Notes under the pieces: generated by a model
Seen by the model: only the letters and a program-made list of their open reading frames with translations
What the model was told of the DNA's origin: nothing
Database searches by the model: none
Shown: one piece after another, positions 8,232 through 57,513 of the stretch
How the letters are laid out: each line of letters begins with the position of its first letter
Position numbering within the stretch: the stretch's first letter is position 1
Program-made: the position numbers and the translations under genes
DNA from: Fulvitalea axinellae
GTDB lineage: Bacteria; Bacteroidota; Bacteroidia; Cytophagales; Cyclobacteriaceae
NCBI RefSeq assembly: GCF_036492835.1
Contig: NZ_AP025314.1
Span: 2,210,010 to 2,274,009 of the forward strand
Direction: 5' to 3'
DNA length: 64,000 nucleotides

Positions 8232-9107
8232 TTAATTGATGGGTACATGGAGCTCGACTTTCAGTAGGTTTCCTTCTTTGTCGGAACGGTAGACTTCGTA
8301 AGCGTTCGAAAGCCCTTCGTCAAGGTCTGATTGAGAAATCTTGGCCCAAAGTTCTCCCAGCCAACTTTCGTAATTGTTAGGGTTGGAAGTGAAAACCGCA
8401 TATTCACTGGGTTTGATTTTGATTGTGGACATAGAATCCGGCGTTTTGGCTTTATTTTTTTTAAAGCCAACACTTAATGTATAGGCTTCTTCGGATGCCC
8501 AATTGTAATCATTGTAAACCACGTAAAGCGGTTCGCCATAGAGATTGTCGGGAGTGGTCAGGGATTCGGCCCCGGAATAGAATTTATAGATTAAGTTTTG
8601 GACCTGTCCGGCGCTATCGGTGGAATTGGGGATGAATTTCATCGAGATTCCCGTAATCAACAGCGTGTCGTTTAGATCTTGGGTTTGGTACTTCAGGCTT
8701 ATTTTTCCTTCCTCCGAAATATCGGGTATTCGATCGTTTTTGGTTTCTGTGGTTGCGGAATCGCTTGTTGTTAATTTTCCGGGAATAGTGTCGTTTAGCT
8801 TCAGGCTATCGGGTTCGGTAAATTTCCCTACGGATCTTCCCACAAAAGCTTTGGGACCGTAAGGCTCTTCGGTTACGCTGAAATAAAGGCTGTAGGCCGA
8901 AAGCGATAGCCAAGTGAAAATTATAATCCAATAAAGGATCGGGTTGTCTTTTCTTTCCACAGGTTCGATAAAGAATGTAGTGCCGAACCTGATGTCGGGA
9001 ATAACCCAGACTAGGAACATGACGCCCCATACCCAAGTCCAGTTTTGGAAGATGGCGACGTAAAGCAGGCAAAGGCCGAGTATGGCTCTGATCTTGTATT
9101 TTCTCAT
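8232..9107 (-). CDS. Membrane-anchored GyrI-like (effector-binding/SRPBCC-like) domain protein
   Basis: 291 aa. The N-terminus has two hydrophobic helices (ILGLCLLYVAIF, VMFLVWVI, IIIFTWLSLSAYSLYF). The C-terminal approx. 110 aa end in AYEVYRSDKEGNLLKVELHVPIN, typical of GyrI-like small-molecule binding domains. Confidence 0.55.
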   Translation of the reverse strand: MRKYKIRAILGLCLLYVAIFQNWTWVWGVMFLVWVIPDIRFGTTFFIEPVERKDNPILYWIIIFTWLSLSAYSLYFSVTEEPYGPKAFVGRSVGKFTEPDSLKLNDTIPGKLTTSDSATTETKNDRIPDISEEGKISLKYQTQDLNDTLLITGISMKFIPNSTDSAGQVQNLIYKFYSGAESLTTPDNLYGEPLYVVYNDYNWASEEAYTLSVGFKKNKAKTPDSMSTIKIKPSEYAVFTSNPNNYESWLGELWAKISQSDLDEGLSNAYEVYRSDKEGNLLKVELHVPIN

Positions 9108-33180: not shown

Positions 33181-33317
33181 ACGTTGATAAGCGTGTGATT
33201 TAAATTCTAAATCAATCCTTGACGGGATGTGGATGGAACGAGCCTCATTTCAGTTTTAAATTTGTGACTGATTCGTTTTGGGCGCGTTATGGATTGGGAT
33301 TTCAGCACTCTGATTTT

Positions 33318-33383
33318 TTACTCTGGACTCTTTACGCTTTACTCTGTACCAAACTTATTACTCTGGACTCTTTACGCTTTACT
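33318..33383 (+). repeat. Two direct copies of a 26-bp motif (tactctggactctttacgctttactc) in the leader of the giant ATPase gene
   Basis: Exact copies lie at 33318-33343 and 33358-33383. The reverse complement (gtaaagcgtaaagagt) occurs at approx. 33124-33140 inside the upstream hairpin region. Confidence 0.8.
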
Positions 33384-33393
33384 CAAAAAAAAC

Positions 33394-36300
33394 ATGTCGG
33401 AAACTACCGAAAAACAAGATATACAACTGGACGGCGGTACATACGAAGTCCTGAAAACGCGTTTGCGGAAGGAGAGCGAAGTTCTGCGTGAACGCTTGAA
33501 TGTTCTGAACGAAAACCGGAAAGACGTTTTCGGCGCCATCGACCTCTCGTTGTTGGCCACCGAACGCGTCACTACCGAATACAATTGCGTGCCTTGGGAC
33601 ATGTGTGCCATAGGCGATCATTTCCTGTTCGGCTATAACGTGCATATGGGGCTGAAGGTGGAGTACAAGCCTTCGGACGTATTCAGCATGTTTCGCTACG
33701 ACGACCTGTCTTTCGTACACGAACCGTTGGACATGCTACAGGACGAAGCCTTTGTCAAGGATTTCAAGAACCTTTACAAATATTACAAAGGCACCCGGTT
33801 CGTCAAATTCGCCCGGATGGGTCAATACCTGCATATGGTTTTCCGCATTGGGCAGGGATTGGACGATATCAAGACATTTAAATGGCTGGTTAGCGAAGGG
33901 GAATTGCGTTATGTGGACGCCCGGAGCGATCACGAGCTGAAATACCCTTCCCAACACGAGTTTGAATGGATCAAGACTACCCGTGAGCAGTTTTGCGAAG
34001 GCGAACACCCGCATATTTCCATCGAGGACATCGTTTTTGTGGAGACGGTAGGCGGTGACTTGACCATAAAAGTAGAGGATAATACCGAAGACGGAAAAGG
34101 AATTTATAACGAGCTTGTCCAGCATAAGGAACAGCGATTGGAAGACGCCGAGGTGTATTACGCCATCTTGGGACATCTTGTTATACTGAAAATAAAACCC
34201 TATCAGGAAGAATTCCGGTATTTTGTCTATAACGCCAAGCTTCAGGAAGCAATTCGGATAGACGCGCTGGAGGATAGCTGTATCCTGTTGCCCGAAAACC
34301 ACGGTTTAATCTTCTCCAACGGCTATTATTTGCAGTCCGGCGACTATAAGCAGTTCGACAATAACCTGTCGGATATGCTGTACGAGCGTTGCGTGCCTTC
34401 GCCTAATGGCGAAGACTTTATGTACGTATTTTACAATCGCCGGAAAGGGATTTACCTGTTGCTTCACTATAACCTGATTGCGCAGAAAGTGGAAAGCCCG
34501 GCGATTTGCCACGGTTACTCGACCTTCGAAAACGGGGAAATGTGCATGTTCCGGGCCGATGACGAACCGAAGAAGCACCATGTTGTCCAGATTTGGCAAA
34601 CCCCTTACGTTGGGCCTGACTTCCAGCTGGAAGGGCAGTCGGATTCTTTCCTGTATAAGATCGGGAACAAGGATATTGTAAAAGCTATGGCCGAGTGTCA
34701 GGCTTTGTTGAATCTGGTCGGGAAAGAGGAAGCGTACCGAGACCAATATTTGGACATCATCAAGATGGCCACCGACTCCTTGGACACGTATCACTGGCTG
34801 GGCAAACCCGAGGCTTCGGAGTTGGCGGAGCCTCTGAAATCTATCCGTGAGACGGCGGTTGCGGCCGTGGACGAATACGAGAAAGTCCGCAAAATTCAAC
34901 AGCATACGAATACGGAGGTCAAGCGGGTATCTAGGGAGGCTGATGATCTTATCGCTAGGCTTAAGCGTGAGGTCCCTCAGCTGATAGGTGACTTCGTCCA
35001 GAACCTGACCGACCTGCGCAAAGTTCGTGGCGAAGTGATTTCCCTGAAGGAACTCCGCTATGTGGACGAGTCCAAGGTGGAGAAGTACGAAGCTTCGCTA
35101 GCCGATTTCGCCGATCAGGTATCGAAAGATTGCGTTCGTTTCCTTTTGAAACCCGAAGCCTTGGAGCCATACGCCGAGCAGGTGGAGGCCATCCGTAAAG
35201 AGGTGGAGAAAGTCACGAAAGTGGTGGAGGCTGACGCCTTAGATGAGCGCATCACGGCGGTGTCGAACGAATTGGAGATGTTGATCGAGACGGTCAGCAA
35301 CCTCAAGATCGACGACGCCACGGAAGTCACTCGCATCATCGACAGCATCTCGGGCATTTATTCCAGCTTCAACCAGATCAAAGCCTCGCTCAAGCGCAAG
35401 CGCAAAGAGCTGATGGGCGAGGAGGGACGCGCCGAGTTCAACGCCCAGATAAAGCTGGTGGACCAAGGCGCCGTCAATTTCCTCGACCTCTGCGACACGC
35501 CCGAGAAGTGCGAGGAATACATGACCAAGCTGATGGTTCAGCTGGAGGAATTGGAAGGCAAGTTCTCGGAGTTTGACGAGTTTATCGATAAGATTTCCGT
35601 CAAGCGCGACGAGCTTTACAACGCCTTCGAATCCAAGAAAATCACTTTGGTGGAGGCCCGCAACCGCCGCGCCACCACCTTGCAGAAAGCGGCCGAGCGT
35701 ATCATCGCCTCGGTAAAGAGCCGTCTTTCTCGCTTCAAGGAAGTATCCGAAATCAACGGCTATATGGCCTCGGATATGATGGTGGAAAAAGTCCGTGGCA
35801 TCGTGCAGGAACTCTTCGATCTTGGCGATTCCGTCAAGGCCGACGACATCCAAAGCCGACTCAAAACCGCCAAGGAAGACGCCCTGCGTCAGCTCAAGGA
35901 CAAGTCCGAACTCTTCGTGGGCGGCGACAACATCATCCGTTTCGGTACTTATGACTTCGCCGTCAATACCCAGCCTTTGGACCTTACGATGGTCTATCGC
36001 GAGGGCCGGATGTTCTACCATCTAAGCGGAACGAACTTCTTTGAGGAAGTGACCGATGAGGAATTCAACGCCAGCCGTCCCGTTTGGGATCAGGCCACCG
36101 TGGCCGAAAACCGCGAGGTATACCGTGGCGAATACCTGGCCTATTTGATTTTGAAAGAAGCCGAAGCCAAGACGCTTTCCCTTTCGGAAGAAGAAGGCGT
36201 ATTGAGCGTATCCGACCTCTCGGATATGGATCATGACGCCCTGATGGCCGTGGTGCAGCGCTATATGGCCCTGCGCTATAGCGAAGGCTACGTGAAAGGC

Positions 36301-38295
36301 GTGCATGACCACGACGCCACCAAGATTTTGGAAGCCCTCCTTGAGATGCAGACCCGTGTGGGGCTCCTGCGTTACGGCGCCTCTACCCGCGCCTTGGCCG
36401 GTTTTTACTGGAACCATTGGGAAGAGAAGGGCCAGCGTGAACTGTTCGAAGCGCAGATACACAGTGCTGGGATTATCCTGCGGGCCTTCCCCGATACGAC
36501 GGAGTTCGAAGCCTTGAAAACCGAGCTCGGCGAACGCCTGCAAGCCTGTGCCGAAGCGACGGAACTTTTCGTCGTGCGTGATTTTGCAGAAGCGGCCGAT
36601 TACCTTTTCGAACAAGTGGCCCTGAACGAAGCCTTTGTGGTGGACGGCAAGGCCTATGACCTGCGCAAGCGTTTCGAATCCGAACTGCGTGGACGCAAGG
36701 TCGATACCGCATTCGGTGAGTCCGTAGCCAAGTTGGAAGATCCGGCCTTGAAATACAGGCTCGTGCGCAACTGGCTCAAGGCCTTCACGCAGGACGCCGG
36801 CCTTGAGGCCGAAATACGTTTCGTGGACGAAGTGGCCGTGATGTTGCTCGATGGCGAAACCGATAAGAAAAGCGTGCGCGAGGTACGCCTCGAACGTGAA
36901 CTGGAAGAGATGCAGGGCGCCCACGACCGTCTGGCCGAACAGCGCTACGGCTTGCACTTCCACGACTTCAACCGCCGTCTCGGCGACTACGCCAGCGACA
37001 CCGTGCCGATGTACGGACGCTTTCAGGAACTGAAACAGCAGATGTCCGCCGACTTCGCCGAGGCCCTGCGCCTGAGTGAGTTCAAACCGCGCGTGCTGTC
37101 CTCCTTCGTACGGAACCAATTGCTCGACAAGGTCTATCTGCCCATCATCGGCGCCAACCTCGCCAAGCAGATCGGTACCGCCGGCGAAGGCAAGCGCACC
37201 GACCTCATGGGCATGCTCCTGCTCATCTCGCCTCCGGGCTACGGTAAGACGACCATCATGGAATACGTCGCCAACCGCCTCGGGCTGGTCTTCATGAAGA
37301 TCAACGGCCCCGCGCTCGGGCATGAAGTGGTGTCCGTGGACCCCGCTCAGGCGGGCAACGCCGGCGTTCGTCAGGAATTGGAGAAGTTGAACCTCGCCTT
37401 TGAGATGGGCGACAACGTGATGATCTACCTCGACGACATCCAGCACTGTAACCCCGAATTCCTGCAGAAATTCATCTCGCTCTGTGACGGCCAGCGAAAA
37501 ATCGAGGGCGTGTACAAGGGCAAGACCAAAACCTACGACTTCCGTGGCAAGAAAGTCTGCGTAGTGATGGCCGGCAACCCATACACCGAGAGCGGCGACA
37601 AGTTCCGCATCCCGGACATGCTCGCCAACCGTGCCGACATCTACAACCTCGGCGACATCCTGGGCGAATCGGATCACGAGTTCAAGCTCTCGTATATCCA
37701 GAACTGCCTCACCTCTAATGCGACCTTGGCCAAACTGGCGGCCAAGAGCCACAAAGACGTGCTCAGCGTGCTCAAGATTGCCGAGACCGGCAACCGCGAA
37801 GGCGTGGAATTCGAGGCCAACCACTCGGCCACCGAGATAGGCGAGTACACAGAGGTGCTCAAAAAGCTCCTCTACGCCCGCGACGTCATCCTGAAGGTGA
37901 ACCTGGAGTACATCCGCTCGGCGGGACAGGCCGAAGAGTTCCGTACCGAACCGCCGTTCAAACTGCAGGGCTCGTACCGCGATATGAACAAGATAGCCGA
38001 GAAAGTGGTGCCCGTGATGAACGACAAGGAACTGCGCACGCTTATGGTCTCGCACTACGAGCGCGAAGCCCAGACCCTGACGGCCGGCGCCGAAGCCAAC
38101 CTGCTCAAATTCCGTGAGCTGATAGGCATCGCCACCGACGACGAGCTCACCCGCTGGGAAGAGATCAAGGAAGTCTTCCGCAAAAAGCAGAAGCATACCC
38201 TATCAGGCGGCAACCAACTGGGCCAAATGCTGGAACAGGTGGAACGCATGGCGGAGAGCCTTGGTAGGATTGCTGGGGAGAGGGAGAGTGTTTGA
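33394..38295 (+). CDS. Giant (approx. 1630 aa) protein with a single C-terminal AAA_5/MoxR-type AAA+ ATPase module; N-terminal approx. 1250 aa novel
   Basis: The ORF is open from 33289, but the likely start is MSETTEKQD at 33394, after the repeat leader. Walker A is LLLISPPGYGKTTIMEY, Walker B is VMIYLDDIQHCNPEFLQKFISLCD, and the sensor/arginine region is VCVVMAGNPYTESGDKFRIPDMLANRADIYNL. The rest is rich in coiled-coil-like segments. Confidence 0.75.
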   Translation: MSETTEKQDIQLDGGTYEVLKTRLRKESEVLRERLNVLNENRKDVFGAIDLSLLATERVTTEYNCVPWDMCAIGDHFLFGYNVHMGLKVEYKPSDVFSMFRYDDLSFVHEPLDMLQDEAFVKDFKNLYKYYKGTRFVKFARMGQYLHMVFRIGQGLDDIKTFKWLVSEGELRYVDARSDHELKYPSQHEFEWIKTTREQFCEGEHPHISIEDIVFVETVGGDLTIKVEDNTEDGKGIYNELVQHKEQRLEDAEVYYAILGHLVILKIKPYQEEFRYFVYNAKLQEAIRIDALEDSCILLPENHGLIFSNGYYLQSGDYKQFDNNLSDMLYERCVPSPNGEDFMYVFYNRRKGIYLLLHYNLIAQKVESPAICHGYSTFENGEMCMFRADDEPKKHHVVQIWQTPYVGPDFQLEGQSDSFLYKIGNKDIVKAMAECQALLNLVGKEEAYRDQYLDIIKMATDSLDTYHWLGKPEASELAEPLKSIRETAVAAVDEYEKVRKIQQHTNTEVKRVSREADDLIARLKREVPQLIGDFVQNLTDLRKVRGEVISLKELRYVDESKVEKYEASLADFADQVSKDCVRFLLKPEALEPYAEQVEAIRKEVEKVTKVVEADALDERITAVSNELEMLIETVSNLKIDDATEVTRIIDSISGIYSSFNQIKASLKRKRKELMGEEGRAEFNAQIKLVDQGAVNFLDLCDTPEKCEEYMTKLMVQLEELEGKFSEFDEFIDKISVKRDELYNAFESKKITLVEARNRRATTLQKAAERIIASVKSRLSRFKEVSEINGYMASDMMVEKVRGIVQELFDLGDSVKADDIQSRLKTAKEDALRQLKDKSELFVGGDNIIRFGTYDFAVNTQPLDLTMVYREGRMFYHLSGTNFFEEVTDEEFNASRPVWDQATVAENREVYRGEYLAYLILKEAEAKTLSLSEEEGVLSVSDLSDMDHDALMAVVQRYMALRYSEGYVKGVHDHDATKILEALLEMQTRVGLLRYGASTRALAGFYWNHWEEKGQRELFEAQIHSAGIILRAFPDTTEFEALKTELGERLQACAEATELFVVRDFAEAADYLFEQVALNEAFVVDGKAYDLRKRFESELRGRKVDTAFGESVAKLEDPALKYRLVRNWLKAFTQDAGLEAEIRFVDEVAVMLLDGETDKKSVREVRLERELEEMQGAHDRLAEQRYGLHFHDFNRRLGDYASDTVPMYGRFQELKQQMSADFAEALRLSEFKPRVLSSFVRNQLLDKVYLPIIGANLAKQIGTAGEGKRTDLMGMLLLISPPGYGKTTIMEYVANRLGLVFMKINGPALGHEVVSVDPAQAGNAGVRQELEKLNLAFEMGDNVMIYLDDIQHCNPEFLQKFISLCDGQRKIEGVYKGKTKTYDFRGKKVCVVMAGNPYTESGDKFRIPDMLANRADIYNLGDILGESDHEFKLSYIQNCLTSNATLAKLAAKSHKDVLSVLKIAETGNREGVEFEANHSATEIGEYTEVLKKLLYARDVILKVNLEYIRSAGQAEEFRTEPPFKLQGSYRDMNKIAEKVVPVMNDKELRTLMVSHYEREAQTLTAGAEANLLKFRELIGIATDDELTRWEEIKEVFRKKQKHTLSGGNQLGQMLEQVERMAESLGRIAGERESV

Positions 38296-39425: not shown

Positions 39426-40460
39426 ATGCTTGCCGTATTCAGGAGCGGAGGAAAACTCAATTTCTCACAGATTCACCGCTCAATGAAAAGGGATCACGAT
39501 TATTGGCGGGATTTCACAGGTGGTAAAAGTAAGTGTTGTGTGAGCCGTGTTCAACTCCGAAGAATCCTGAAGGATACAGATATACAGGGACTTAAGGCGG
39601 TTGCTGAAACCACTTTTAACGCAAACGAAACTATAGATCCGCAAGCTCTTCAATGGTTTTCGATTGACGGTAAAGAACTCCGGGGGAGTATCGACAAATC
39701 CTCAGGGGACAAACGCGGGGAAAGCGTGGTTCTGGTTACCGCGCAAGAAGATAAAACCAGCAAGGTTGTAGGCTACTATTCGGGTACCAAAGACTCCGAG
39801 CGGGGTATTGTCGACGAATATTTTGAAACTCAATCCGGTCTTTCGGGAACGGCTTATACGATGGATGCCCTTCACAATAATTCCGGGTTACTGGAGGGAA
39901 TCCATGGAAAACGGGGCGTCTACCTTTCACAAATAAAAGGGAACCAGAAAATACTCCGTGAAGACCTTCGAGACATGGAGCGGAGATCAGAATGTTTGGA
40001 TTATAAAAAGACCGTCGAAAAGGGCCATGGCAGGATCGAAACAAGAATATACCGGACCTACCCGGTGGAAACGGGATGCTTGGAGCGTCGCTGGTCGAAT
40101 ACGGGGATGAGCTGCTTCATACGGGTAGACCGTACCCGTAAAGTCGTTAAAACAGGAAAAACATCAAGCGAGACATCATACTACGTCAGCAATATAAATA
40201 CCGGTCTTATTGATCAATACAACTTGCCTAACGCCGTAAGGGGACACTGGTCCGTAGAGGCAAACAATAATATGAGGGATACGAACTTCGGAGAGGACGG
40301 GTTAAGGAGCCTTGTCTCTGGTATACAGCAAAGTGTTTCATGTATTTTGACTGCTGTAATGAATATTTTGATCCAAAGGAACGCTGGTGAAAATATGAAT
40401 GAAATGCGAGAGGAGATCGTAGCAGATATAAATTCTATTCACCAATATTTTAATAGATAG
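39426..40460 (+). CDS. ISAs1-family transposase (DDE); canonical start missing, frame open from approx. 39306
   Basis: ISAs1 signatures are present: SIDGKELRGS, QIKGNQ, EKGHGRIETR, SYYVSN, GHWSVEANNNMRDTNFGED. The upstream in-frame residues (LVDHRNAKGKKHELAFVVLCF) still match the conserved ISAs1 N-terminal block, but there is no ATG before an in-frame stop at 39303. Confidence 0.75.
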   Translation: MLAVFRSGGKLNFSQIHRSMKRDHDYWRDFTGGKSKCCVSRVQLRRILKDTDIQGLKAVAETTFNANETIDPQALQWFSIDGKELRGSIDKSSGDKRGESVVLVTAQEDKTSKVVGYYSGTKDSERGIVDEYFETQSGLSGTAYTMDALHNNSGLLEGIHGKRGVYLSQIKGNQKILREDLRDMERRSECLDYKKTVEKGHGRIETRIYRTYPVETGCLERRWSNTGMSCFIRVDRTRKVVKTGKTSSETSYYVSNINTGLIDQYNLPNAVRGHWSVEANNNMRDTNFGEDGLRSLVSGIQQSVSCILTAVMNILIQRNAGENMNEMREEIVADINSIHQYFNR

Positions 40461-40699: not shown

Positions 40700-41116
40700 A
40701 TGAGCAATCAAAAAAATCACCTAGTATCTCTGTCTGAGTTACTTTTTACCGTATTACCCGTAATAATCATATCGATCATATTTTTGTTTGAAGAAAAGTA
40801 TGGGAAATTATTTTATAATACTGAGTGGGCTATTTGTGCAATTATTTTATTTGGTCAGTCAATTGTAAAATTCTCCAGTGGTACAAGTAATTCTCAAAAG
40901 CGTTTCACTTGGCAGAAAATTGCATTGATTATAACTTTAATTATAGTTTTAGGGTTGATACCCTCTATTATTTTTCTTGTTATTAACATTCTTCATAAGG
41001 AAGAAGATCCAAGCTTTTTTTTGCATATGGTTCAAATTATTTGGGCTTTACTAAGTGGAGTTGTGTTTTTTTATATAGGTGGGCTTGGCCAAAAATTTTT
41101 AGAAGAAAAAAACTAA
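40700..41116 (+). CDS. Small polytopic membrane protein (hypothetical, AT-rich)
   Basis: 138 aa with four hydrophobic helices. It is low-GC. Confidence 0.4.
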   Translation: MSNQKNHLVSLSELLFTVLPVIIISIIFLFEEKYGKLFYNTEWAICAIILFGQSIVKFSSGTSNSQKRFTWQKIALIITLIIVLGLIPSIIFLVINILHKEEDPSFFLHMVQIIWALLSGVVFFYIGGLGQKFLEEKN

Positions 41117-41129
41117 TTTTTCTTGACCC

Positions 41130-41190
41130 CGGCTTGCGTCAGTGTGTTTAACGGCCATCGCAAGCATCTTTGCTTGCGACGGCGATGGGA
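41130..41190. repeat. Solo REP-like palindromic element
   Basis: ccggcttgcgtcagtgtgtttaacggccatcgcaagcatctttgcttgcgacggcgatgg shares the gcttgcg...tttaacggccatcgcaag head of the larger repeat units downstream. It carries the hairpin gcaagcatctttgcttgc. Confidence 0.7.
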
Positions 41191-41228
41191 GTTAGTGTCG
41201 TGAGATTGTTTCTTAAATCTACTTTGTT

Positions 41229-41624
41229 TTGAAAATGAGAGTATTGAATGTCGTTGTTGCCTTATGTTTTGGATTTCTGAGCGCTAGTGTTTTTTTCGGA
41301 TGTAATTCATCCAAGATAGTTTCCCAGAAAGCGGAGACGGTTCCTATTGAAAGAATTTTGGATCCAACGAGTAAGTACATAAAGCTTTACATGGGGTTTA
41401 CGGTTACTAAATTTGACACTTTAGCGAATATCAGGGTAGTGAAAGTTATAGGACCTATTGTGGACTCCTTGTTTGTTGATAGTTTGAGTGTCTATGCAGA
41501 GAAGCGTATCAGGGAAGAAAGGTGGACAGCCGGAAAACAGAGAGGGAGAAAAGTTGATGTCGATATCATGTGGCCCCTTCAGTTTGATGCTGAGGAATGG
41601 GGTGGAAAGTTTAGTGATGATTGA
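41229..41624 (+). CDS. Hypothetical small lipoprotein
   Basis: 131 aa with signal peptide and lipobox (LSASVFFGCNSS). It is bracketed by REP-like elements. Confidence 0.5.
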   Translation: MKMRVLNVVVALCFGFLSASVFFGCNSSKIVSQKAETVPIERILDPTSKYIKLYMGFTVTKFDTLANIRVVKVIGPIVDSLFVDSLSVYAEKRIREERWTAGKQRGRKVDVDIMWPLQFDAEEWGGKFSDD

Positions 41625-41638
41625 GTAATTGTTCCCGG

Positions 41639-41805
41639 CTCCAGCTAACCGTATTTAACGGCCATCGCAAGTGTCCACACTTGTGATTTTCATATTAGCA
41701 AGCGTCCACGCTTGCCCGTTCAGTTTTTTCAACCTGGTGTAGGCAAGCGAGGACGCTTGCGGTTTGTATAGTCACAAGTGAAGACACTTGCGACGGCTGT
41801 TAGCC
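41639..41805. repeat. REPIN-like unit 1 (two inverted REP doublets, four hairpins)
   Basis: tttaacggccatcgcaagtgtccacacttgtga...agcaagcgtccacgcttgc...gcaagcgaggacgcttgc...cacaagtgaagacacttgcgacggctgttag. The second half is an inverted copy of the first. Near-identical copies lie at 42190, 42901 and 43698. Confidence 0.8.
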
Positions 41806-41806
41806 T

Positions 41807-42139
41807 TTAGATGACGATCACATCCAGCATACCGCATTGTTCTGTGTAGTAGTCAATTGCGCTACTGTATAAGTAATGTTCAGGGCTAGATACAATGCCC
41901 GCTTTTACCGGATTTTCGTGGATGTATTTGATCTTTTGTCGAACTACTTTAGGCGTGAATAACTCAATAGGGTGGTTGTCTTGTCTCCAGAGTTGGAAGT
42001 GTTTGTTGTTGCTGTTCTTTTTGCCGGCATAGCGGAACGCTCGAAGCATCCATTCCTTTCGGCTCTCCGTTTTGCTGTTGTGTAGTGTCTCGTGAATCTT
42101 TTTGGAAGTGAAGCCCTTCAGGTCCCGAATGGTTTCCAA
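41807..42139 (-). pseudogene. Truncated RAYT (REP-associated tyrosine transposase) copy, C-terminal two thirds only
   Basis: 110 aa, near-identical to residues approx. 75-184 of the intact copy at 43072..43626, with the YIHENPVKAGIVSSPEHYLYSS tyrosine motif retained. The HuH-containing N-terminus is replaced by REPIN sequence: after gtgggcgtg the sequence jumps to attgctcccccggctcgcgccagcatgtttaacgg. Confidence 0.75.
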
Positions 42140-42189
42140 AGTTGGGGAGTGTCTTTAGCGCGTCGCGCCACCAAGTGGGCGTGATTGCT

Positions 42190-42358
42190 CCCCCGGCTCG
42201 CGCCAGCATGTTTAACGGCCATCGCAAGTGTCCACACTTGTGATTTTTATATTAGCAAGCGTCCTCGCTTGCCCGTTCAGCATTTCCAATCTGGAGTGTG
42301 CAAGCGAGGACGCTTGCGGTTTGTATAGTCACAAGTGAAGACACTTGCGACGACTGTT
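42190..42358. repeat. REPIN-like unit 2
   Basis: cgcgccagcatgtttaacggccatcgcaagtgtccacacttgtgatttttatattagcaagcgtcctcgcttgc...gcaagcgaggacgcttgcggtttgtatagtcacaagtgaagacacttgcgacgactgttgg. Confidence 0.8.
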
Positions 42359-42951
42359 GGCGTGGAAAGGCTAAAAATATCTTTGTGAAATACAGGTTAA
42401 ATATAGAATCGTTGAGTCAATTGGAGCCATGCAAGAAGAGTTTCGATTATGACTCAGAGTATGATGACTTTAGTTCAATCTCTTCCGATATATCTGATGT
42501 TCTACATGAAATGGGAGTGGTGTTCCAGCTTCAAGTTGATAATGTTGAAATTCCGATCTTCATATGGGGAGACTTTGAATATTTTCTTGATGGATTTTAT
42601 GAGTATGCGGGATTTCTTTTCTCTAATCAGAAAAGCGAATTCATGTTTGAGTTACTTGAGCAAGGCATAGAGACACAAGTTTGTTTTTCGATTGAAGATG
42701 ATAGGGTAAAAGTAAGTGAAGAGAATTTTTATATGGGAAGTTATTATGTGAAAATGAATGAATTGAGATCTGACTTTAAGCGGTTCTTTAAAGAGTTTAT
42801 TTCACTAATTGATCTACTTATTCCAGGGATAAGTTTACATACTTGGTTTAAGCAATGGCGAGAGGGTATTCAGTCAATTATAAATGATGTCCACGGCTCT
42901 CCGGCTTGCGCCAGCTTGTTTAACGGCCATCGCAAGTGTCCACACTTGTGA
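42298..42951 (+). CDS. Hypothetical acidic protein whose predicted ends are encoded by REPIN sequence (real start probably internal, e.g. approx. 42511)
   Basis: 217-aa ORF. The central part is AT-rich with D/E/F/Y-rich sequence and no motifs. The first approx. 20 and last approx. 17 codons lie inside REPIN units 2 and 3, so the termini are probably artefactual or altered by repeat insertion. Confidence 0.3.
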   Translation: MQARTLAVCIVTSEDTCDDCWRGKAKNIFVKYRLNIESLSQLEPCKKSFDYDSEYDDFSSISSDISDVLHEMGVVFQLQVDNVEIPIFIWGDFEYFLDGFYEYAGFLFSNQKSEFMFELLEQGIETQVCFSIEDDRVKVSEENFYMGSYYVKMNELRSDFKRFFKEFISLIDLLIPGISLHTWFKQWREGIQSIINDVHGSPACASLFNGHRKCPHL

Positions 42952-43070
42952 TTTTTATATTAGCAAGCGTCCACGCTTGCCCGTTCAGTTTTTTCAATCT
43001 GGTGTGTGCAAGCGAGGACGCTTGCGGTTTGTATAGTCACAAGTGAAGACACTTGCGACGGCTGTTAGCC
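42901..43070. repeat. REPIN-like unit 3 (abuts the RAYT stop codon)
   Basis: ccggcttgcgccagcttgtttaacggccatcgcaagtgtccacacttgtgatttttatattagcaagcgtccacgcttgcccgttcag...gcaagcgaggacgcttgcggtttgtatagtcacaagtgaagacacttgcgacggctgttagcc. Confidence 0.8.
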
Positions 43071-43071
43071 T

Positions 43072-43626
43072 TTAGATGACGATCACATCCAGCATACCGC
43101 GCTGTTCTGTGTAGTAGTCAATTGCGCTACTGTATAAGTAATGTTCAGGGCTAGATACAATGCCCGCTTTTACCGGATTTTCGTGGATGTATTTGATCTT
43201 TTGTCGAACTACTTTAGGCGTGAACAACTCAATAGGGTGGTTGTCTTGTCTCCAGAGTTGGAAGTGTTTATTGTTGCTGTTCTTTTTGCCGGCATAGCGG
43301 AACGCTCGAAGCATCCATTTCTTTCGGCTCTCCGTATTGCAGTTGTGTAGTGTCTCGTGAATCTTTTTGGAAGTGAAGCCTTTCAGGTCCCGAATGGTTT
43401 CCCAAAGTTGTGGAGTGTCTTTAGCGCGTCGCGCCACCAAGTGGGCGTGGTTGCTCATCAGGCACCAGCTGAAAATCTCCAGACCTTTGTTCGTTTGGCA
43501 ATAGCGCAGGTTTTCCACAAAAATATCTTTGTAGACGGGGCGTGTGAAGACGTCGATCCAATGTACTGTGGCGAAGCTGATGAAATATAAGCCTTCCGGG
43601 TTTCGGAACTTGTATGCTGTGCTCAT
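43072..43626 (-). CDS. IS200-like Y1 (HuH) transposase of the REP-associated tyrosine transposase (RAYT) type, intact
   Basis: 184 aa. The HuH motif is SNHAHLV and the C-terminal RAYT signature is YIHENPVKAGIVSSPEHYLYSS (compare YxxxNPVxAGLV...YPWSS). It is flanked on both sides by REPIN units 3 and 4. Confidence 0.85.
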   Translation of the reverse strand: MSTAYKFRNPEGLYFISFATVHWIDVFTRPVYKDIFVENLRYCQTNKGLEIFSWCLMSNHAHLVARRAKDTPQLWETIRDLKGFTSKKIHETLHNCNTESRKKWMLRAFRYAGKKNSNNKHFQLWRQDNHPIELFTPKVVRQKIKYIHENPVKAGIVSSPEHYLYSSAIDYYTEQRGMLDVIVI

Positions 43627-43697
43627 TCTTCTGAATGGTCAAAGACTGTTCCTTATTGTGGGTTTATACACATTGGGAAGAATGTGATATATATGCC

Positions 43698-43862
43698 CTG
43701 GCCTGCACCAGTGTGCTTAATGGCCATCGCAAGTGTCCACACTTGTGATTTTTATATTAGCAAGCGTCCTCGCTTGCCCATCTAGCCTTTCCAATACGGT
43801 CGAGGCAAGCGAGGACGCTTGCAGTTTTTTTGTCACAAGCGAAGACGCTTGCGACGGCGTGG
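43698..43862. repeat. REPIN-like unit 4
   Basis: ctggcctgcaccagtgtgcttaatggccatcgcaagtgtccacacttgtgatttttatattagcaagcgtcctcgcttgcc...gcaagcgaggacgcttgcagtttttttgtcacaagcgaagacgcttgcgacggcgtgg. Confidence 0.8.
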
Positions 43863-44076
43863 GTAAATTCTGAAGGCAAAATTCCAGCGACTACTCGTGA
43901 GGAATTGCAACACTTTCTATAATCTCTAAACCGAAGGAAAACCGGTCTCGAAAAATCGAATGGCTAATCAACACTCCCGGAAAAGATGAATAAAAACTCG
44001 GCGGTTTCGGGAAAACACTAAAAAAGCCCCGCCAAAAGGCAGGACCATATAAGAATAGGGGGAATAAACCCTTGGT

Positions 44077-44679
44077 TTAGGCGCACCTCTCCCGGAGTTC
44101 GGAATATATCCGCCTTGCCTTAGAGCGCTTTGGTCGTGTTTCGGTCTTCGGTTCCGGTTTCTTTTTGACTTTCGGGCTGTCGTCGTAGAGGCCTTTGCGG
44201 TATAGCTCTGGGTGGTACTTGGCCACATAGAGGCGCAAAGCAGGACGCATCAGCGTAGGATTAATGGGTTTTATGCCGCAGTGATACAGGCTTTTGCGCC
44301 GAATACGGCAATATATCCGGTACGATAATCTGCCGTAGCGCCAATATTGGTCGCAAATATCGTCGGAGGCCCAGACAACCAGCAAGCGATCGGGGCCGGA
44401 GCGTTTTCGTCCTGCTATCGGAGGAAATACGGCACGCGCGGGCGAGCCTTTTCTTTCATTGGTAGTCGCCAAATACTTCCGGGCTTGATAAAGCTTGTGG
44501 GCGTTTTCGGCGGTGTAAACTCCCATAAAGTCATTACGGCGCAATTCGCGGGAGACAGTCGATGGGTTTATGCCCAGCCACTTCGCCACTTGGCGTATGG
44601 ACATGCCCTTGGCTTTGCATCTTTGTATCCAGATGCGGTCTGTCAGGTTTAGGTGCCGGTATTTGCCTTTTACCATCAT
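44077..44679 (-). pseudogene. IS30-family transposase remnant (N-terminal HTH region only, DDE domain absent)
   Basis: LTDRIWIQRCKAKGMSIRQVAKWLGINPSTVSRELRRN is the IS30 HTH signature, followed by an IS30-like linker (IAGRKR...SYRIYCRIRRKS). The ORF stops at approx. 200 aa with no DDE catalytic region. Confidence 0.7.
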
Positions 44680-44994
44680 CGGTTATGTAAGAGCAAAATG
44701 TTTGCCTTGCCAAACCCGTGTAACAACTTGAAAATGTAAGGAATCGGGGCACCAAAAACGAGTTGAAAAACTGTTTCCCCCAGCACGCTTTAGCGTGTTT
44801 AACGGTCATTGTAAGGTACAGTTTTTGAAAATAAGCAAAACTATATTCCTATATTTACGGCACCAGAAAAGAGGGAGTTTGGTTTTTGATATTCAGACAT
44901 CTTACGACGGAATCGTAAAACCTTTTGTTCTCTTATAAAGAAAAAATCACTTTCAATAACTTGGATTGAACGGCCACGTAGGTTTTCGTTTTTA

Positions 44995-45163
44995 CAGACA
45001 CCATCTTAAGGTCTCCAAACCTGTGTTTTCTTGGCAATGCCGAAGGCTTTCAACTAATATATTGTTGTAAGTTGGACGGGTGAACAGGTCTATCCAGTGT
45101 ACTGTGCCGAAGCTGATAAAATATAAACCTTCAGGGTTGCGGAGTTTATAGGATGTACTCATC
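44995..45163 (-). pseudogene. 5' fragment of a third, diverged RAYT copy
   Basis: The reverse strand translates to MSTSYKLRNPEGLYFISFGTVHWIDLFTRPTYNNILVESLRHCQENTGLETLRWC, matching the first approx. 55 residues of the intact RAYT. Similarity then ends before the HuH motif. Confidence 0.6.
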
Positions 45164-45914
45164 TTGGTGTTTTGGCAAGGATCATTACTTGGTCGTGGAG
45201 GTAAGGTCGGGTACTTGTTGTTTGATGTATCGCAAATAGGGCCCCTTGTAACGACGCTTATTCATTTTTTTTCGTAAAATTTTAATTTTGAAAGATTTTT
45301 TAGGAGAGGCCAACAAGTTGTTCTCGAAAATCAAATTGGAATATGTAAAGGGTGTTGATCTAGTGTTCGCTGTAGTGTTCCTGTCTGTGTTTTTTAACAA
45401 AGGATCACAGAAAAAATTCGATTTATTTAAAAACGCCTCGATAAGCAAAGCTTATGTATATAGGTCGACTTCTTCCTGAAAAAAGGTGCTACAAGTATAA
45501 GTTTGAAACGTACTCGGGTGATGTAAGGTACGGTAATGTCAGTCGAAATGCGACTGTGAGTACTGGGTGACATTACTTGGTTTTATATATAACGGAGAGG
45601 AGTTTGTGCTGTTGGTTGATCGTCCCATGGGCAAAGAGGATGAACTGGACGTTATGAGGGATGAGATTTCGGATTATGAGATTAGGCAAGCGATGCTGTA
45701 TGGAGTGGTATAATATGTACGCTTATATCTTAGCTACTGTAGGTGTTCGAGCTTTTATTATACAGCAAGGTTAGTTCAAAAGCTTCTGGTTTGGTGTGTC
45801 ACAAGCAAATATGCTTGCTTTGAAGGGAAGGAGTGCGGTGTTGTTTTTCTTTCATGTCATATAAAAATATCCAAAGTAATTGCCCGAAATATATTATTTA
45901 TTACTTTTAAAATA

Positions 45915-47843: not shown

Positions 47844-48305
47844 ATGAGTAATCAAATGATCCAAACGTTTCATGTAGTCGGTATTTCTGTAAGAACAATT
47901 AATGAGAATGGCCAGGCCATGAAAGACATCGAGGCTTTGTGGGGAAGATTTTGGGGAGAGGGAATCGAGAAACAAATTCCTAACAAGGTGAATGATGATA
48001 TCTATGCGGTATACACCGATTATGTGACTGACCATACGGGACCATATACTACCATTATTGGAGTGCTGGTCAATTCGTTGGCAGATATTCCAGATGGCTT
48101 CGTGGGGGTGACTATTGAGGCAGACCACTACAAAAAGTATGTTTCAAAAGGGAAGATGCCAGAGGCGGTAGTCCATACTTGGATGGAAATATGGGAGGAT
48201 GAAAAATTGGATCGGTCTTATAAAGCGGATTTTACTGTTCACGGTGAAAAATACCACAACGGTAATGAAGCTGAGGTTGAGACTTTTATTTCTGTGCAGG
48301 AGTGA
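47844..48305 (+). CDS. GyrI-like small-molecule-binding domain protein
   Basis: 153 aa. IQTFHVVGISVRT...ALWGRFW...YAVYTDY...AEVETFISVQE is the canonical GyrI-like/AraC-effector-binding pattern. Confidence 0.7.
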   Translation: MSNQMIQTFHVVGISVRTINENGQAMKDIEALWGRFWGEGIEKQIPNKVNDDIYAVYTDYVTDHTGPYTTIIGVLVNSLADIPDGFVGVTIEADHYKKYVSKGKMPEAVVHTWMEIWEDEKLDRSYKADFTVHGEKYHNGNEAEVETFISVQE

Positions 48306-55735: not shown

Positions 55736-56166
55736 GGCATTGTATGTTTGTCGGTTATGCCAAATCTAATCCATAGGGCGTGCCAAATATCAGAATCGGC
55801 CTTTACGGGGGCGCTGAGGTGGTTTGTCTTTGGGGTTGCAAAAAACAGTGTATCGTTATCGGACATTTTTTATGTTGGATTTTGTTCGGTTTTGGAGCAT
55901 TAACGGGGCGGTATAGATTTGTGTGATTGCGTCAGTTCCGTACCTGTTGTGTTTTGCCGTTGAGTGAGACGGTCTGTTGGCTGAAGCCTATATGCATTTT
56001 TAGCTCCGGTTTCATTTTTTACACGGTTTACGGGGTGTTTCCGAAAGGAAAAAAAGACGAAATTTATTTCTGATTCTAAGGTCTGTGGATACGTAGGTCA
56101 CGATGATGACCTGGACCTGCATTCGTTTTGCGATTCCACGGAAATGCTTCTGAAGATCCGATAATT

Positions 56167-57513
56167 ATGACCGACACTATTAACTATCAATACGCCGTAG
56201 CCTCGGCATTGCGTAAAACCGCCGAGGCCGACGAACTTTTGCTTTCGGAATACAGCGAACTGGAACGGAAAACCGGAGCGCCGTGTTTTTTCTGGGGAAA
56301 ATTGGCCGATCCGTATATCACCGCCCGGTGCCTGATTACTCTGTCGAAGGTAGTGCAGTCCAGCTTTAACCTTTCGCCTTTTCAGCTCGCGTTATTGAAA
56401 GACCCGGTGGTGACGGCAGGAAACGATACGATACGGTTCGAAGGTTTTTCGCATTGCGCCGGGGTTTACGCGCGTGTAGATGTATTGCCGGATGGCCATG
56501 ACGGAGAGTTTTTGGACCAAGGCACTACCAATGTCGATTTTAACCAACCCATGATTGGTGCTTTGGGCAGTGTGCGCCGAAAAGAGGATGTGATGTTGGC
56601 CGTAGGGCAAAAATCGGTGAGCGTGGAGACGTCCGGCGCCAAGGTGGTTGAGCGGAAAGTGCCTTTGCCCACAAAGTGGATAAAAGGAATGACCACTGTC
56701 CAGCTGTATCTAGCCGATAGCGAGGAACGTTTCCGCCTTAACCGTTTGCAGGCTTTACAACTTTTCAGAAGCGTTCCGAAAAGCAAAGTGAAAACGGATT
56801 ATTTTTTGGGAATGAGAGGCACCCGCCCGGTCTTGTCGCCCGCCAAGATGCCCGACGGCGTTTGCGTGGGTGGTGTCCATCGTTTGCGCCTTGTCGAAGG
56901 CCTTTTGCCTTTGGTTGACGAGGTCCGGGTTTTCGCTCATAAAGACATGCAGTCCACTACTTGGCAATTGTATTTTGGGCCGGTTCGCTTCAATATCACG
57001 CTTTCCCGTGATGCTTGGCGGGGCTTCTCGGGCGAGGGTGCCGCTTTGGAATCTTTGATGGAAGATGTTCCCGAAACATTGATCCGCCGTTTCGACAATT
57101 ACAGCTTTGCGAACCAAAGTTTCAACGCCACGATGACCGCTATCCAAACCGATGTCGATTTTGCGAAAATCGATCAATTGACGGCGAGGCTGTCGGCGAT
57201 GGGGCTTTTGGGCTTTGATTTGGATGATAACGCTTTTTACTATCGTCGCCTTCCATTCAAAATGGAGCGAATCATGAGCTTGAACCCGAGGGCGAAAGGC
57301 GCCGAAAAACTCTTGGAAAAAGGCAAAGTAACGATCGTAAGCAAAGACCCGGATAGGGTGGAGGCCAGGGTTGAGGGAAGCGGTGTCCGCCACACAATCG
57401 TGATTAAGGGGGAGAAAGCCCAATGTACCTGCGCTTGGTATGCCAAAAACCAAGGGGAACGGGGAGCTTGCAAGCATGTGCTGGCTGTGAAAAAGATGTT
57501 AAACACGAAGTAA
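56167..57513 (+). CDS. SWIM zinc-finger domain protein
   Basis: The ORF starts at 56128, but the probable start is MTDTINYQ at 56167. A C-terminal CTCAWYAKNQGERGACKHVLAV (CxCx13CxH) is the canonical SWIM motif. The N-terminal approx. 400 aa are uncharacterised. Confidence 0.75.
   Translation: MTDTINYQYAVASALRKTAEADELLLSEYSELERKTGAPCFFWGKLADPYITARCLITLSKVVQSSFNLSPFQLALLKDPVVTAGNDTIRFEGFSHCAGVYARVDVLPDGHDGEFLDQGTTNVDFNQPMIGALGSVRRKEDVMLAVGQKSVSVETSGAKVVERKVPLPTKWIKGMTTVQLYLADSEERFRLNRLQALQLFRSVPKSKVKTDYFLGMRGTRPVLSPAKMPDGVCVGGVHRLRLVEGLLPLVDEVRVFAHKDMQSTTWQLYFGPVRFNITLSRDAWRGFSGEGAALESLMEDVPETLIRRFDNYSFANQSFNATMTAIQTDVDFAKIDQLTARLSAMGLLGFDLDDNAFYYRRLPFKMERIMSLNPRAKGAEKLLEKGKVTIVSKDPDRVEARVEGSGVRHTIVIKGEKAQCTCAWYAKNQGERGACKHVLAVKKMLNTK

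What the first reader, a model, noticed from the sequence alone, without database searches (positions are those of the whole stretch)
41130..45163. REPIN-like palindromic repeat array with one intact and two decayed RAYT (IS200-like Y1 transposase) copies in a Bacteroidota genome
Four approx. 165-bp units (41639, 42190, 42901, 43698) are each built from two inverted REP doublets, four GC-rich hairpins in all (caagtgtccacacttg, gcaagcgtccacgcttgc, gcaagcgaggacgcttgc, caagtgaagacacttg). The second half of each unit is the reverse complement of the first, which is the REPIN architecture. A solo REP lies at 41130 and a degenerate one at approx. 44780. The intact 184-aa RAYT (HuH SNHAHLV plus the Y...NPV...YLYSS motif) sits between units 3 and 4, and its stop codon abuts unit 3. 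A second copy (41807..42139) lost its HuH N-terminus through an apparent REPIN insertion or recombination exactly at gtgggcgtg|attgctccc. A third copy survives only as approx. 55 N-terminal codons (44995..45163). RAYT/REPIN systems are described mostly from Proteobacteria. This looks like a locally amplifying and decaying system, and the repeat units also appear to have remodelled the termini of a neighbouring ORF (42298..42951).
Basis: partly seen in the sequence, partly recalled or inferred. Interest (0 to 1): 0.6.

Follow-up and report, generated by a model that had tools for sequence, protein, structure and literature searches.

The report
RAYT transposase locus with palindromic repeats
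This is a domesticated hairpin-cutting transposase gene (RAYT) of the marine bacterium Fulvitalea axinellae, sitting among local copies of its own four-hairpin palindromic repeat and two broken gene copies; it is a real but fairly ordinary member of a repeat system already described for Bacteroidota.

Summary
Window 41127-45818 of the Fulvitalea axinellae chromosome carries four 170-175-bp four-hairpin units, one collapsed single-hairpin copy, one decayed unit and a lone hairpin. All are co-oriented, and none occurs elsewhere in the 64 kb. One intact 184-aa RAYT lies between units 3 and 4. It passes the NCBIfam REP-associated tyrosine transposase cut-off, keeps the HuH and catalytic Tyr residues, and its model best matches E. 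coli TnpAREP (4ER8).

RAYTs 54-60% identical, from five other Bacteroidota loci, are flanked by the same hairpin core (CGCAAG..CTTGTG, always with a G.T pair). These repeats are therefore the cognate REPs of this RAYT clade and not integron attC sites. The clade matches Quentin subclass 2.6 / Bertels group 5, already reported from Bacteroidetes with "atypical secondary structures".

- Copy 2 keeps the HuH codons. It lacks codons 1-57 and has a frameshift.
- Only the 3' end of the neighbouring gene is altered by a unit.
- The two RAYT fragments break within 2 nt of the same codon. This is unexplained.

The source genome is withheld from the searchable collections, so the genome-wide copy number could not be tested. 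Verdict: new member of a known kind, modest interest.

The parts
41127..41197 (+). Collapsed 'double-foot' single-hairpin copy. It has the left relic, the left foot TTTAACGGCCAT, one perfect hairpin CGCAAGCA-TCTT-TGCTTGCG, and the right foot.
   Evidence: (family D3). The stem is the 5' half of an H1 type joined to the 3' half of an H4 type, as expected from a central deletion of a full unit.
41634..41805 (+). Unit 1, a four-hairpin palindromic unit. Its left extension carries a 5-nt deletion.
41807..42190 (-). RAYT pseudogene (copy 2), codons 58-184, 97% nt identical to the intact gene. The HuH codons are present, but a 1-nt deletion shifts the frame. Annotated as the 110-aa WP_338394563.1.
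42191..42363 (+). Unit 2. It abuts the 5' break of copy 2.
42385..42951 (+). 188-aa gene of an uncharacterised family. Its last 17 codons or so, and its stop codon, are supplied by unit 3.
   Evidence: Homologues start at MKYxL and end near residue 200 of the 217-aa ORF, and the unit begins at residue 201.
42899..43070 (+). Unit 3, the reference unit. It holds the relic half-REP 42899-42918, H1 42929-42952, H2 42963-42980, H3 43008-43025 and H4 43037-43058.
43072..43626 (-). Intact RAYT of 184 aa (BDD09356.1 / WP_338394565.1), with HuH at H60-A61-H62 and the catalytic Tyr at Y146.
43696..43866 (+). Unit 4, the most diverged full unit (84-86% identical to the others). It lies 70 nt upstream of the RAYT start codon.
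44778..44912 (+). Decayed unit. The left end (44778-44815) is clearly homologous. The right end (AGACATCTTACGACGG, about 44894-44910) is borderline. The interior has degraded.
44995..45162 (-). RAYT fragment (copy 3), codons 1-56 only, 76% nt and 73% aa identical to the intact gene.
45797..45818 (+). Lone H4-like hairpin, TGTCACAAGCAAATATGCTTGC.
   Evidence: (family D5). The match is weak on its own (E 0.66).

Best explanation
This is a REPtron of the Bacteroidota-type RAYT clade: a Y1/HUH REP-associated tyrosine transposase gene together with its cognate repeats.

The repeat is a composite of about 172 bp. It holds two outer hairpins (CGCAAGTG..CACTTGTG and its inverse), two inner hairpins (GCAAGCG..CGCTTGC), and a relic half-REP at the left end. 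As single-stranded DNA it folds either as four small hairpins or as one long REPIN-like hairpin.

Proposed mechanism, inferred by analogy with E. coli TnpAREP and IS200/IS605:
1. The RAYT binds the outer hairpins on single-stranded DNA.
2. The conserved G.T (A.C on the other strand) pair and the 5' foot may let it tell the two strands apart.
3. It cuts next to the foot and rejoins, so whole units are copied to nearby sites.

The copies landed just downstream of, or on the last codons of, + strand genes, always in one orientation. There the T-rich linkers make them look like terminators. The locus has since decayed: one unit collapsed to a single hairpin, one eroded, and two RAYT copies are truncated.

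Shown here: the protein family, its fold and its catalytic residues; the unit anatomy and folding; the common descent of all copies (shared relic); insertion in different gene contexts; and the recurrence of the hairpin core next to related RAYTs at other loci.

Inferred: that this RAYT moves these units, and where it cuts.
For: Protein:
- NF047646 REP_Tyr_transpos scores 92.6 against a cut-off of 80, whereas transpos_IS200 scores only 17.8 against 55. Pfam Y1_Tnp also matches.
- H60, H62 and Y146 are invariant in 25 homologues.
- A profile of the family hits 4ER8 at E 3.7e-5.
- The AlphaFold model has pLDDT 92. Its best PDB match is 4ER8, TnpAREP bound to a REP hairpin (E 8e-8, TM 0.63/0.70), followed by the ISDra2 and IS608 TnpA structures.
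- The motifs NHAH, YIHENP and YSS, the 184-aa length and the phylum fit subclass 2.6 / group 5, described as flanked by 'atypical secondary structures'.

Repeats:
- The counts are far above chance, and the fold z-score is -10.

Link between enzyme and repeat:
- In loci around RAYTs 54-60% identical (Aureibacter, Mucilaginibacter, Nibribacter, a Lewinellaceae MAG and contig CAWKVP01), CGCAAG..CTTGTG / CACAAG..CTTGCG hairpins occur only within about 1.2 kb of the RAYT gene.
- All 29 copies listed carry G.T at the second stem pair, while positions 7-8 vary with compensation (TG/CA, CG/CG, TT/AA). The collapsed copy in the window adds CA/TG.
- Mucilaginibacter has the same four-hairpin composite on both sides of its RAYT.

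Common descent and mobility:
- The left extension is the 5' half of the ancestral-type REP (GCTGG-CGCAAG on the - strand). It is shared by all six left ends, so the copies descend from one progenitor.
- The units sit between unrelated genes, which simple tandem duplication cannot produce.

Precedent:
- REPs concentrated around tnpAREP are reported for the Marinomonas REPtrons Ma and Mb.
Against: - There is no evidence that the units occur anywhere outside this 4.7-kb stretch. None is found in the other 59 kb of the window.
- Exact 18-mer scans of the genome and metagenome collections gave only chance hits. The source genome appears to be withheld from the tools, so this is weak evidence.
- No annotated protein anywhere carries a long unit-derived peptide. 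This test is insensitive.
- The HuH motif is NHAH rather than the published NH[LIV]H, and the 'WQ' motif is WR.
- There is no GTAG-like foot, so the cleavage site is unknown.
- No activity data exist for any group 5 RAYT that I found.
Confidence: 0.75

Rival explanations
1. The array arose by purely local recombination. A RAYT gene with flanking hairpins was rearranged by unequal or microhomology-mediated recombination and gene conversion. The units were never transposed by the enzyme and form no genome-wide family.
For: - All copies lie within 4.7 kb and are co-oriented.
- A 537-bp block (41654-42190 = 42919-43456) is a 97% duplicate with sharp edges.
- The break in copy 2 falls where the RAYT sequence GCTCATCAGGCACCAGC resembles the unit's left end CTCCCCGGCTTGCGCCAGC.
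- In five related loci the hairpins are also confined to the RAYT flanks.
Against: - The units lie between unrelated genes (a 131-aa lipoprotein-like gene, the 188-aa gene, the RAYT and an HTH gene). Tandem duplication does not give that pattern.
- Unit 3 replaced the end of a conserved gene, which is the signature of an insertion.
- Bertels et al. report about 31 replicon-wide occurrences of flanking 16-mers for group 5 RAYTs.
- Quentin et al. state that copies of the subclass 2.6 structures occur elsewhere in the genome.
Confidence: 0.15
2. An integron-like cassette array. The units would be attC sites (GTTTAAC .. GTTAGCC resemble the R'' and R' boxes), each following one gene, and all in the same orientation.
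For: - The layout is gene-unit-gene-unit with uniform orientation.
- Similarity between units ends right after GTT at the right border.
- A short copy and long copies share the outer stem, as attC sites with variable central parts do.
- A Cass2 family protein is encoded nearby.
Against: - No tyrosine recombinase was found among the ORFs of 120 aa or more that were scanned.
- The stems are fully paired, with no extrahelical bases and no unpaired spacer.
- A 20-nt conserved extension lies outside the supposed R'' box.
- The hairpin core follows the RAYT clade across genera, in loci with no cassette structure.
- Cass2 is only a GyrI-like domain name.
Confidence: 0.02
3. An autonomous IS200/IS605-type insertion sequence, unit-RAYT-unit, that moves as a whole. 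The three RAYT copies would be three insertions.
For: - There are three RAYT-derived sequences in 3.4 kb.
- The hairpins are subterminal on both sides of the gene.
Against: - transpos_IS200 scores 17.8 against a cut-off of 55.
- The tyrosine motif is the RAYT type (YIHENP) rather than Y..Q.
- The 90% identity cluster holds only the intact gene and two calls of copy 2, all from this locus.
- Related RAYTs sit as single genes between housekeeping genes.
Confidence: 0.05

Closest known systems
TnpAREP/RAYT subclass 2.6 of Quentin et al. 2018 (PMC6006769) = RAYT group 5 of Bertels et al. 2017 (PMC5581495)
   Same: - Bacteroidota host and a length of about 180 aa.
- Motifs of the NHxH, YIHxNP and SS types.
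- An insertion between alphaC and beta4.
- The gene is flanked by unusual, non-GTAG secondary structures.
   Different: - The motifs deviate slightly (NHAH, WR, YIHENP).
- Here the units form a co-oriented local array with other genes in between.
- Two truncated RAYT copies lie beside the intact one, whereas RAYTs are typically single-copy.
REPIN-RAYT systems of Pseudomonas and Enterobacteria (Bertels and Rainey 2011, PMC3116915)
   Same: - Two inverted REP modules form one long hairpin.
- They flank a RAYT gene on both sides.
   Different: - Each arm here holds two hairpins instead of one.
- The linkers are direct T-rich repeats.
- An asymmetric relic half-REP is attached.
- A dispersed population of tens to hundreds of copies, which defines a REPIN family, could not be shown.
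Marinomonas sp. MWYL1 REPtrons Ma and Mb (Corneloup et al. 2021, PMC8266576)
   Same: The REPs are concentrated close to the tnpAREP gene. The authors read this as local multiplication after a recent arrival.
   Different: These are groups 2 and 3 from Gammaproteobacteria, with GTAG-tagged simple hairpins.
E. coli TnpAREP with REP/BIME (Ton-Hoang 2012, PMC3333891; Messing 2012, PMC3479197; PDB 4ER8)
   Same: - It is the best structural match.
- Its hairpin substrate has a conserved stem irregularity that is required for strand-specific recognition. The invariant G.T pair here may play the same role.
   Different: - Sequence identity is only 16%.
- There is no GTAG foot here.
- The irregularity is a single G.T pair instead of an AA-GC bulge.

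Membership tests
RAYT / TnpAREP (REP-associated Y1 HUH transposase) | HuH metal-binding motif and a single catalytic tyrosine | tested here: met
   H60-A61-H62 and Y146 are invariant in an alignment of 25 homologues. They align to the HuH and Y regions of 4ER8.
RAYT / TnpAREP (REP-associated Y1 HUH transposase) | Scores above the curated family threshold and better than IS200 transposases | tested here: met
   NF047646 scores 92.6 against a cut-off of 80. NF033573 transpos_IS200 scores 17.8 against 55.
RAYT / TnpAREP (REP-associated Y1 HUH transposase) | TnpAREP fold | tested here: met
   The model has pLDDT 92.3. The top PDB hit is 4ER8_A at E 8.3e-8 with TM 0.63/0.70.
RAYT / TnpAREP (REP-associated Y1 HUH transposase) | Gene flanked by palindromic REP sequences (REPtron layout) | tested here: met
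   Unit 3 lies 1 nt from the stop codon and unit 4 lies 70 nt upstream of the start codon.
RAYT / TnpAREP (REP-associated Y1 HUH transposase) | Typically one copy per genome, not multiplied like an IS | tested here: inconclusive
   The 90% identity cluster holds only the intact gene and copy 2. Paralogues below 90% identity elsewhere in the genome were not surveyed.
RAYT / TnpAREP (REP-associated Y1 HUH transposase) | Cleaves and rejoins single-stranded REP DNA | not testable with these tools
   This needs a biochemical assay.
Subclass 2.6 (Quentin 2018) / group 5 (Bertels 2017) | Motifs NH[LIV]H, WQ, YIH[QN]NP and C-terminal SS; about 179 aa; Bacteroidetes; atypical flanking structures | tested here: inconclusive
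   The observed motifs are NHAH, WR, YIHENP and YSS, and the length is 184 aa. The host is in Cytophagales. The closest homologues (E 1e-69) are Bacteroidota RAYTs. The authors' own HMMs were not available.
REPIN (Bertels and Rainey 2011) | Two inverted REPs that can form one long hairpin | tested here: met
   The arms are 78-80% complementary. The fold is -50.7 kcal/mol with z -10.
REPIN (Bertels and Rainey 2011) | A population of many copies dispersed in extragenic space across the genome | not testable with these tools
   The source genome is absent from the searchable indexes. There is no copy outside 41127-45818 in the 64-kb window.
Integron attC array | IntI integrase and attI next to the array | tested here: not met
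   No recombinase domain was found in the scanned ORFs of the window. An integrase outside the window cannot be excluded.
Integron attC array | Imperfect stem with extrahelical bases and an unpaired central spacer | tested here: not met
   The predicted stems are continuous, apart from linker loops and single mismatches.
IS200/IS605 insertion sequence | Whole element present in several near-identical copies; transposase of the Y..Q type | tested here: not met

The most novel reading that the evidence does not exclude
The two RAYT fragments are the halves of one older RAYT gene. That gene was split at codon 57 by the insertion of a 2.8-kb segment bounded by co-oriented units (42191-44994). The segment carries unit 2, the 188-aa gene, unit 3, a second RAYT, unit 4, an HTH gene and the decayed unit. 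If so, pairs of these REPIN-like units can move the genes between them, the RAYT included, as a composite, cassette-like element. The 97% identity of copy 2 to the intact gene would then be due to later gene conversion.
Probability: 0.12. Interest if true: 0.6.

Novelty: new member of a known kind. Interest (0 to 1): 0.3.

Why it matters
It adds a well-resolved example of the little-studied Bacteroidota RAYT clade, for which published work mentions only "atypical secondary structures".

It gives three concrete starting points for biochemistry on a RAYT group with no activity data that I found:
- the unit anatomy: four hairpins plus a relic half-REP;
- a hairpin core conserved across the Cytophagales, Sphingobacteriales and Lewinellaceae loci examined, with an invariant G.T pair;
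- a locus where units have multiplied locally, collapsed and decayed.

The complementary breakpoints in the two RAYT fragments hint at either a recombination hotspot inside the gene or the movement of a larger unit-bounded segment. Neither changes current understanding unless confirmed.

Tried and rejected
**Genome-wide copy count.**
- Exact 18-mer scans of genome contigs and metagenome contigs gave 7 and 1 hits. The Bacteroidia MAG hit and the metagenome hit were read and lie in unrelated sequence with no hairpin. The other six come from unrelated Proteobacteria and fit the roughly 17 chance hits I estimated for the genome collection.
- Exact look-ups of the RAYT, of copy 2 and of the multicopy ISAs1 transposase found nothing. 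The F. axinellae assembly therefore seems to be withheld, and the scans say nothing about it.
- PLSDB has no F. axinellae plasmids. Neither the unit nor the ISAs1 gene matched.

**Six-frame peptide search.** I searched the protein database with a six-frame translation of a unit, hoping to catch unit-derived ORF ends elsewhere in the genome. Nothing scored at E up to 10. The search did not even recover the known 18-aa tail of the neighbouring gene, so it is too insensitive to use.

**Integron/attC reading.** I considered this seriously because of the GTTTAAC..GTTAGCC boxes and the gene-unit alternation. I rejected it for the reasons given under the rival explanations.

**Rfam.** Only sub-threshold microRNA-precursor matches appeared, which reflects a generic long hairpin.

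**More distant RAYT loci.** The plasmid-borne RAYTs of Persicobacter (40% identity) and Bernardetia (52%) have different flanking hairpins. Persicobacter has a GGTCGTAGTC..GACTACGACC long inverted repeat, and Bernardetia has GCGTAGTC..GACTACG and GCAAATC..GATTTGC. They do not inform on this REP type.

**Further degenerate copies.** Candidates at 44962-44983 and 45174-45262 were not significant against shuffles.

Full report
**Source.** The 110-aa ORF at 41807-42139 is identical to WP_338394563.1, and the 184-aa ORF is BDD09356.1 / WP_338394565.1. Both come from the 4,866,544-bp chromosome of Fulvitalea axinellae (Bacteroidota, Cytophagales, Persicobacteraceae). The position index returns nothing for any protein of this genome, not even for an ISAs1 transposase that the cluster table shows on 8 contigs. 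The genome therefore seems to be withheld, and the 18-mer scans of public collections cannot speak for it. The hits I read were chance, and the rest look like chance.

**Observation.** Four units lie at 41634-41805, 42191-42363, 42899-43070 and 43696-43866. They are 84-97% identical to one another.
- Each unit holds four hairpins with CAAG..CTTG stems and 4-nt loops. H1 is CGCAAGTG-TCCA-CACTTGTG, H2 is GCAAGCG-TCCA/T-CGCTTGC, H3 is GCAAGCG-AGGA-CGCTTGC and H4 is CACAAGTG-AAGA-CACTTGCG.
- The hairpins are arranged palindromically, with arms 78-80% complementary.
- Either strand folds into a single long hairpin (-50.7 and -53.3 kcal/mol, z about -10).
- A collapsed copy at 41127-41197 has both feet but only one, perfect, hairpin. 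Its stem joins the 5' half of an H1 type to the 3' half of an H4 type. This is the "double-foot" form that Quentin et al. derive from a central deletion in an inverted REP dimer.
- A decayed unit lies at 44778-44912, with a significant left end and a borderline right end.
- A lone H4-like hairpin lies at 45797-45818.
- The counts are far above chance. The 18-mer has 6 matches against 0.1 expected, and there are 19 CAAG-hairpins against about 1.
- All copies are on the + strand, and the remaining 59 kb of the window has none.

- Every unit starts with a 20-nt extension (CCCCGGCTTGCGCCAGCnTG) that has no inverted partner. Read on the - strand it is GCTGG-CGCAAG. That is exactly the 5' foot plus half-stem of the REP found next to related RAYTs in other genera. 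It is therefore a relic half-REP, and its presence in all six left ends shows the copies descend from one progenitor.
- The linkers after H1 (TTTTTATATTA) and after H3 (GGTTTGTATAG) are direct T-rich repeats, not inverted ones. As a result the units give terminator-like sites only on the + strand: 10 of the 18 sites found, 8 distinct hairpins.
- The units sit 9-10 nt after the stop codons of the + strand genes 40700-41116 and 41229-41624, or on the last codons of the gene 42385-42951.

**The protein.**
- The 184-aa ORF passes NCBIfam REP_Tyr_transpos (92.6 against a cut-off of 80) and fails transpos_IS200 (17.8 against 55). Pfam Y1_Tnp matches.
- In an alignment of 25 homologues, H60, H62 (HuH) and Y146 (YIHENP) are invariant.
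- The family profile reaches E. coli TnpAREP (4ER8) and the ISDra2 TnpA.
- The AlphaFold model (pLDDT 92.3) has 4ER8 as its best PDB match, followed by the ISDra2 and IS608 transposases.
- The motif pattern, length and phylum match subclass 2.6 of Quentin et al. 2018, which equals group 5 of Bertels et al. 2017. [quoted passage not shown] Bertels et al. report about 31 replicon-wide occurrences of flanking 16-mers for group 5.

**Link between enzyme and repeat.** I fetched loci around RAYTs 54-60% identical to this one. They come from Aureibacter tunicatorum, an unnamed 2.5-Mb contig (CAWKVP01), Mucilaginibacter jinjuensis, Nibribacter koreensis and a Lewinellaceae MAG.
- In each locus, hairpins of the form CGCAAG..CTTGTG or the inverse occur, and only within about 1.2 kb of the RAYT gene. 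The 20-kb loci have none elsewhere.
- All 29 copies listed have a G.T pair at the second stem position (A.C on the other strand). Positions 7-8 of the stem vary with compensation (TG/CA, CG/CG, TT/AA), and the collapsed copy in the window adds CA/TG.
- Mucilaginibacter has the same four-hairpin palindromic composite on both sides of its RAYT. Aureibacter has long co-oriented arrays, including a neighbouring gene enclosed by REP clusters.
- The hairpins are therefore the cognate REPs of this RAYT clade.
- A conserved stem irregularity is known to be required for strand-specific recognition by E. coli TnpAREP. By analogy, the G.T pair is a candidate strand discriminator. This is an inference.

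**RAYT fragments.**
- Copy 2 (41810-42190) covers codons 58-184 at 97% nt identity. It includes the SNHAHLV codons, with a 1-nt deletion after codon 75.
- The duplicated block is 41654-42190 = 42919-43456. Its left edge falls exactly at TTTAAC, the foot of H1, and its right edge at the break.
- Copy 3 (44995-45162) covers codons 1-56 at 76% nt and 73% aa identity. The N-terminus of the intact gene is closer to a metagenomic RAYT (78.6%) than to copy 3.
- Homology to the intact gene ends at 43456 for copy 2 and begins at 43459 for copy 3. The two breaks are thus complementary to within 2 nt.
- I cannot decide between a hotspot hit twice and a single older gene split by a unit-bounded 2.8-kb insert and later partly converted. 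In favour of a hotspot, the local sequence GCTCATCAGGCACCAGC resembles the unit's left end.

**Neighbouring gene.** A full HMMER search shows that the real gene is the annotated 188-aa form starting at 42385. It has the conserved N-terminus MKYxL. Homologues end at about residue 200 of the 217-aa ORF, which is where unit 3 begins. The unit therefore supplies a 17-residue tail and the stop codon. The 5' end is not remodelled.

**Rivals.**
- An integron-like attC array was attractive because of the GTTTAAC..GTTAGCC boxes, the gene-unit alternation and the uniform orientation. It fails for four reasons. No recombinase was found in the scanned ORFs. The stems are fully paired. A conserved extension lies outside the supposed R'' box. 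The hairpin core tracks RAYTs in other genera.
- An autonomous IS200-type element fails on the family scores, the tyrosine motif and the lack of other copies.
- Purely local recombination remains possible (about 0.15), because dispersal could not be tested. It does not explain units between unrelated genes, nor the replaced gene end.
- Local concentration of REPs around tnpAREP has a published precedent in Marinomonas.

**Verdict.** The finding is real and largely correctly read. It is a REPtron of the Bacteroidota RAYT clade, with composite four-hairpin units that have multiplied locally and are decaying. The kind is already described, so this is a new member of a known kind. The anatomy, the conserved G.T-bearing core and the complementary breakpoints are useful details but not surprises.

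Noticed in passing
window 39426-40460 (+): An ISAs1-family transposase (NF033564, E 1.5e-34). The identical protein is recorded on 8 contigs of F. axinellae, plasmids included. The RAYT locus therefore lies in a region that also holds an active-looking IS.
   Followed up: partly
window 44077-44679 (-), terminator-like site 44046-44025: A 200-aa protein with only an IS30-like HTH_38 domain and a basic tail. It lies between unit 4 and the decayed unit. A paralogue at 90% identity or more (FUAX_27570) exists elsewhere in the chromosome.
   Followed up: partly
window 43456-43459, 42190/42191 and 44994/44995: The breakpoints of the two RAYT fragments map to the same codon (57) of the intact gene, within 2 nt of each other. 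Yet the fragments differ greatly in divergence from it (97% against 76% nt identity).
   Followed up: partly
window 41664-41697, 42221-42254, 42929-42962, 43726-43759 and the H3 sites: Hairpins H1 and H3 are each followed by T-rich tracts on the + strand only. The units therefore look like one-directional intrinsic terminators for the upstream + strand genes.
   Followed up: partly
window 33289-38295 (+): A 1668-aa protein with DUF3686 ('ATPase involved in DNA repair'), DUF7902 and AAA domains. GC reaches 0.58, against about 0.45 in the surrounding sequence. It may be a horizontally acquired or defence-related gene.
   Followed up: no
window 47844-48305 (+) and 8232-9107 (-): Two proteins match the Cass2 / GyrI-like effector-binding domain. 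The 'integron-associated' name is historical and is not evidence of an integron here.
   Followed up: no
L009 3149-3822 (Aureibacter tunicatorum contig JAVDQD010000021.1): Twelve tandem 57-bp repeats lie directly downstream of the RAYT gene. Each holds one CCAAGTT..AACTTG hairpin preceded by GTAG/GAAG. An ORF is called across the array on the opposite strand.
   Followed up: no
window 56128-57513 (+) and 57527-60424 (+): A SWIM zinc-finger protein is followed by a 965-aa ORF. The pair was not examined further.
   Followed up: no
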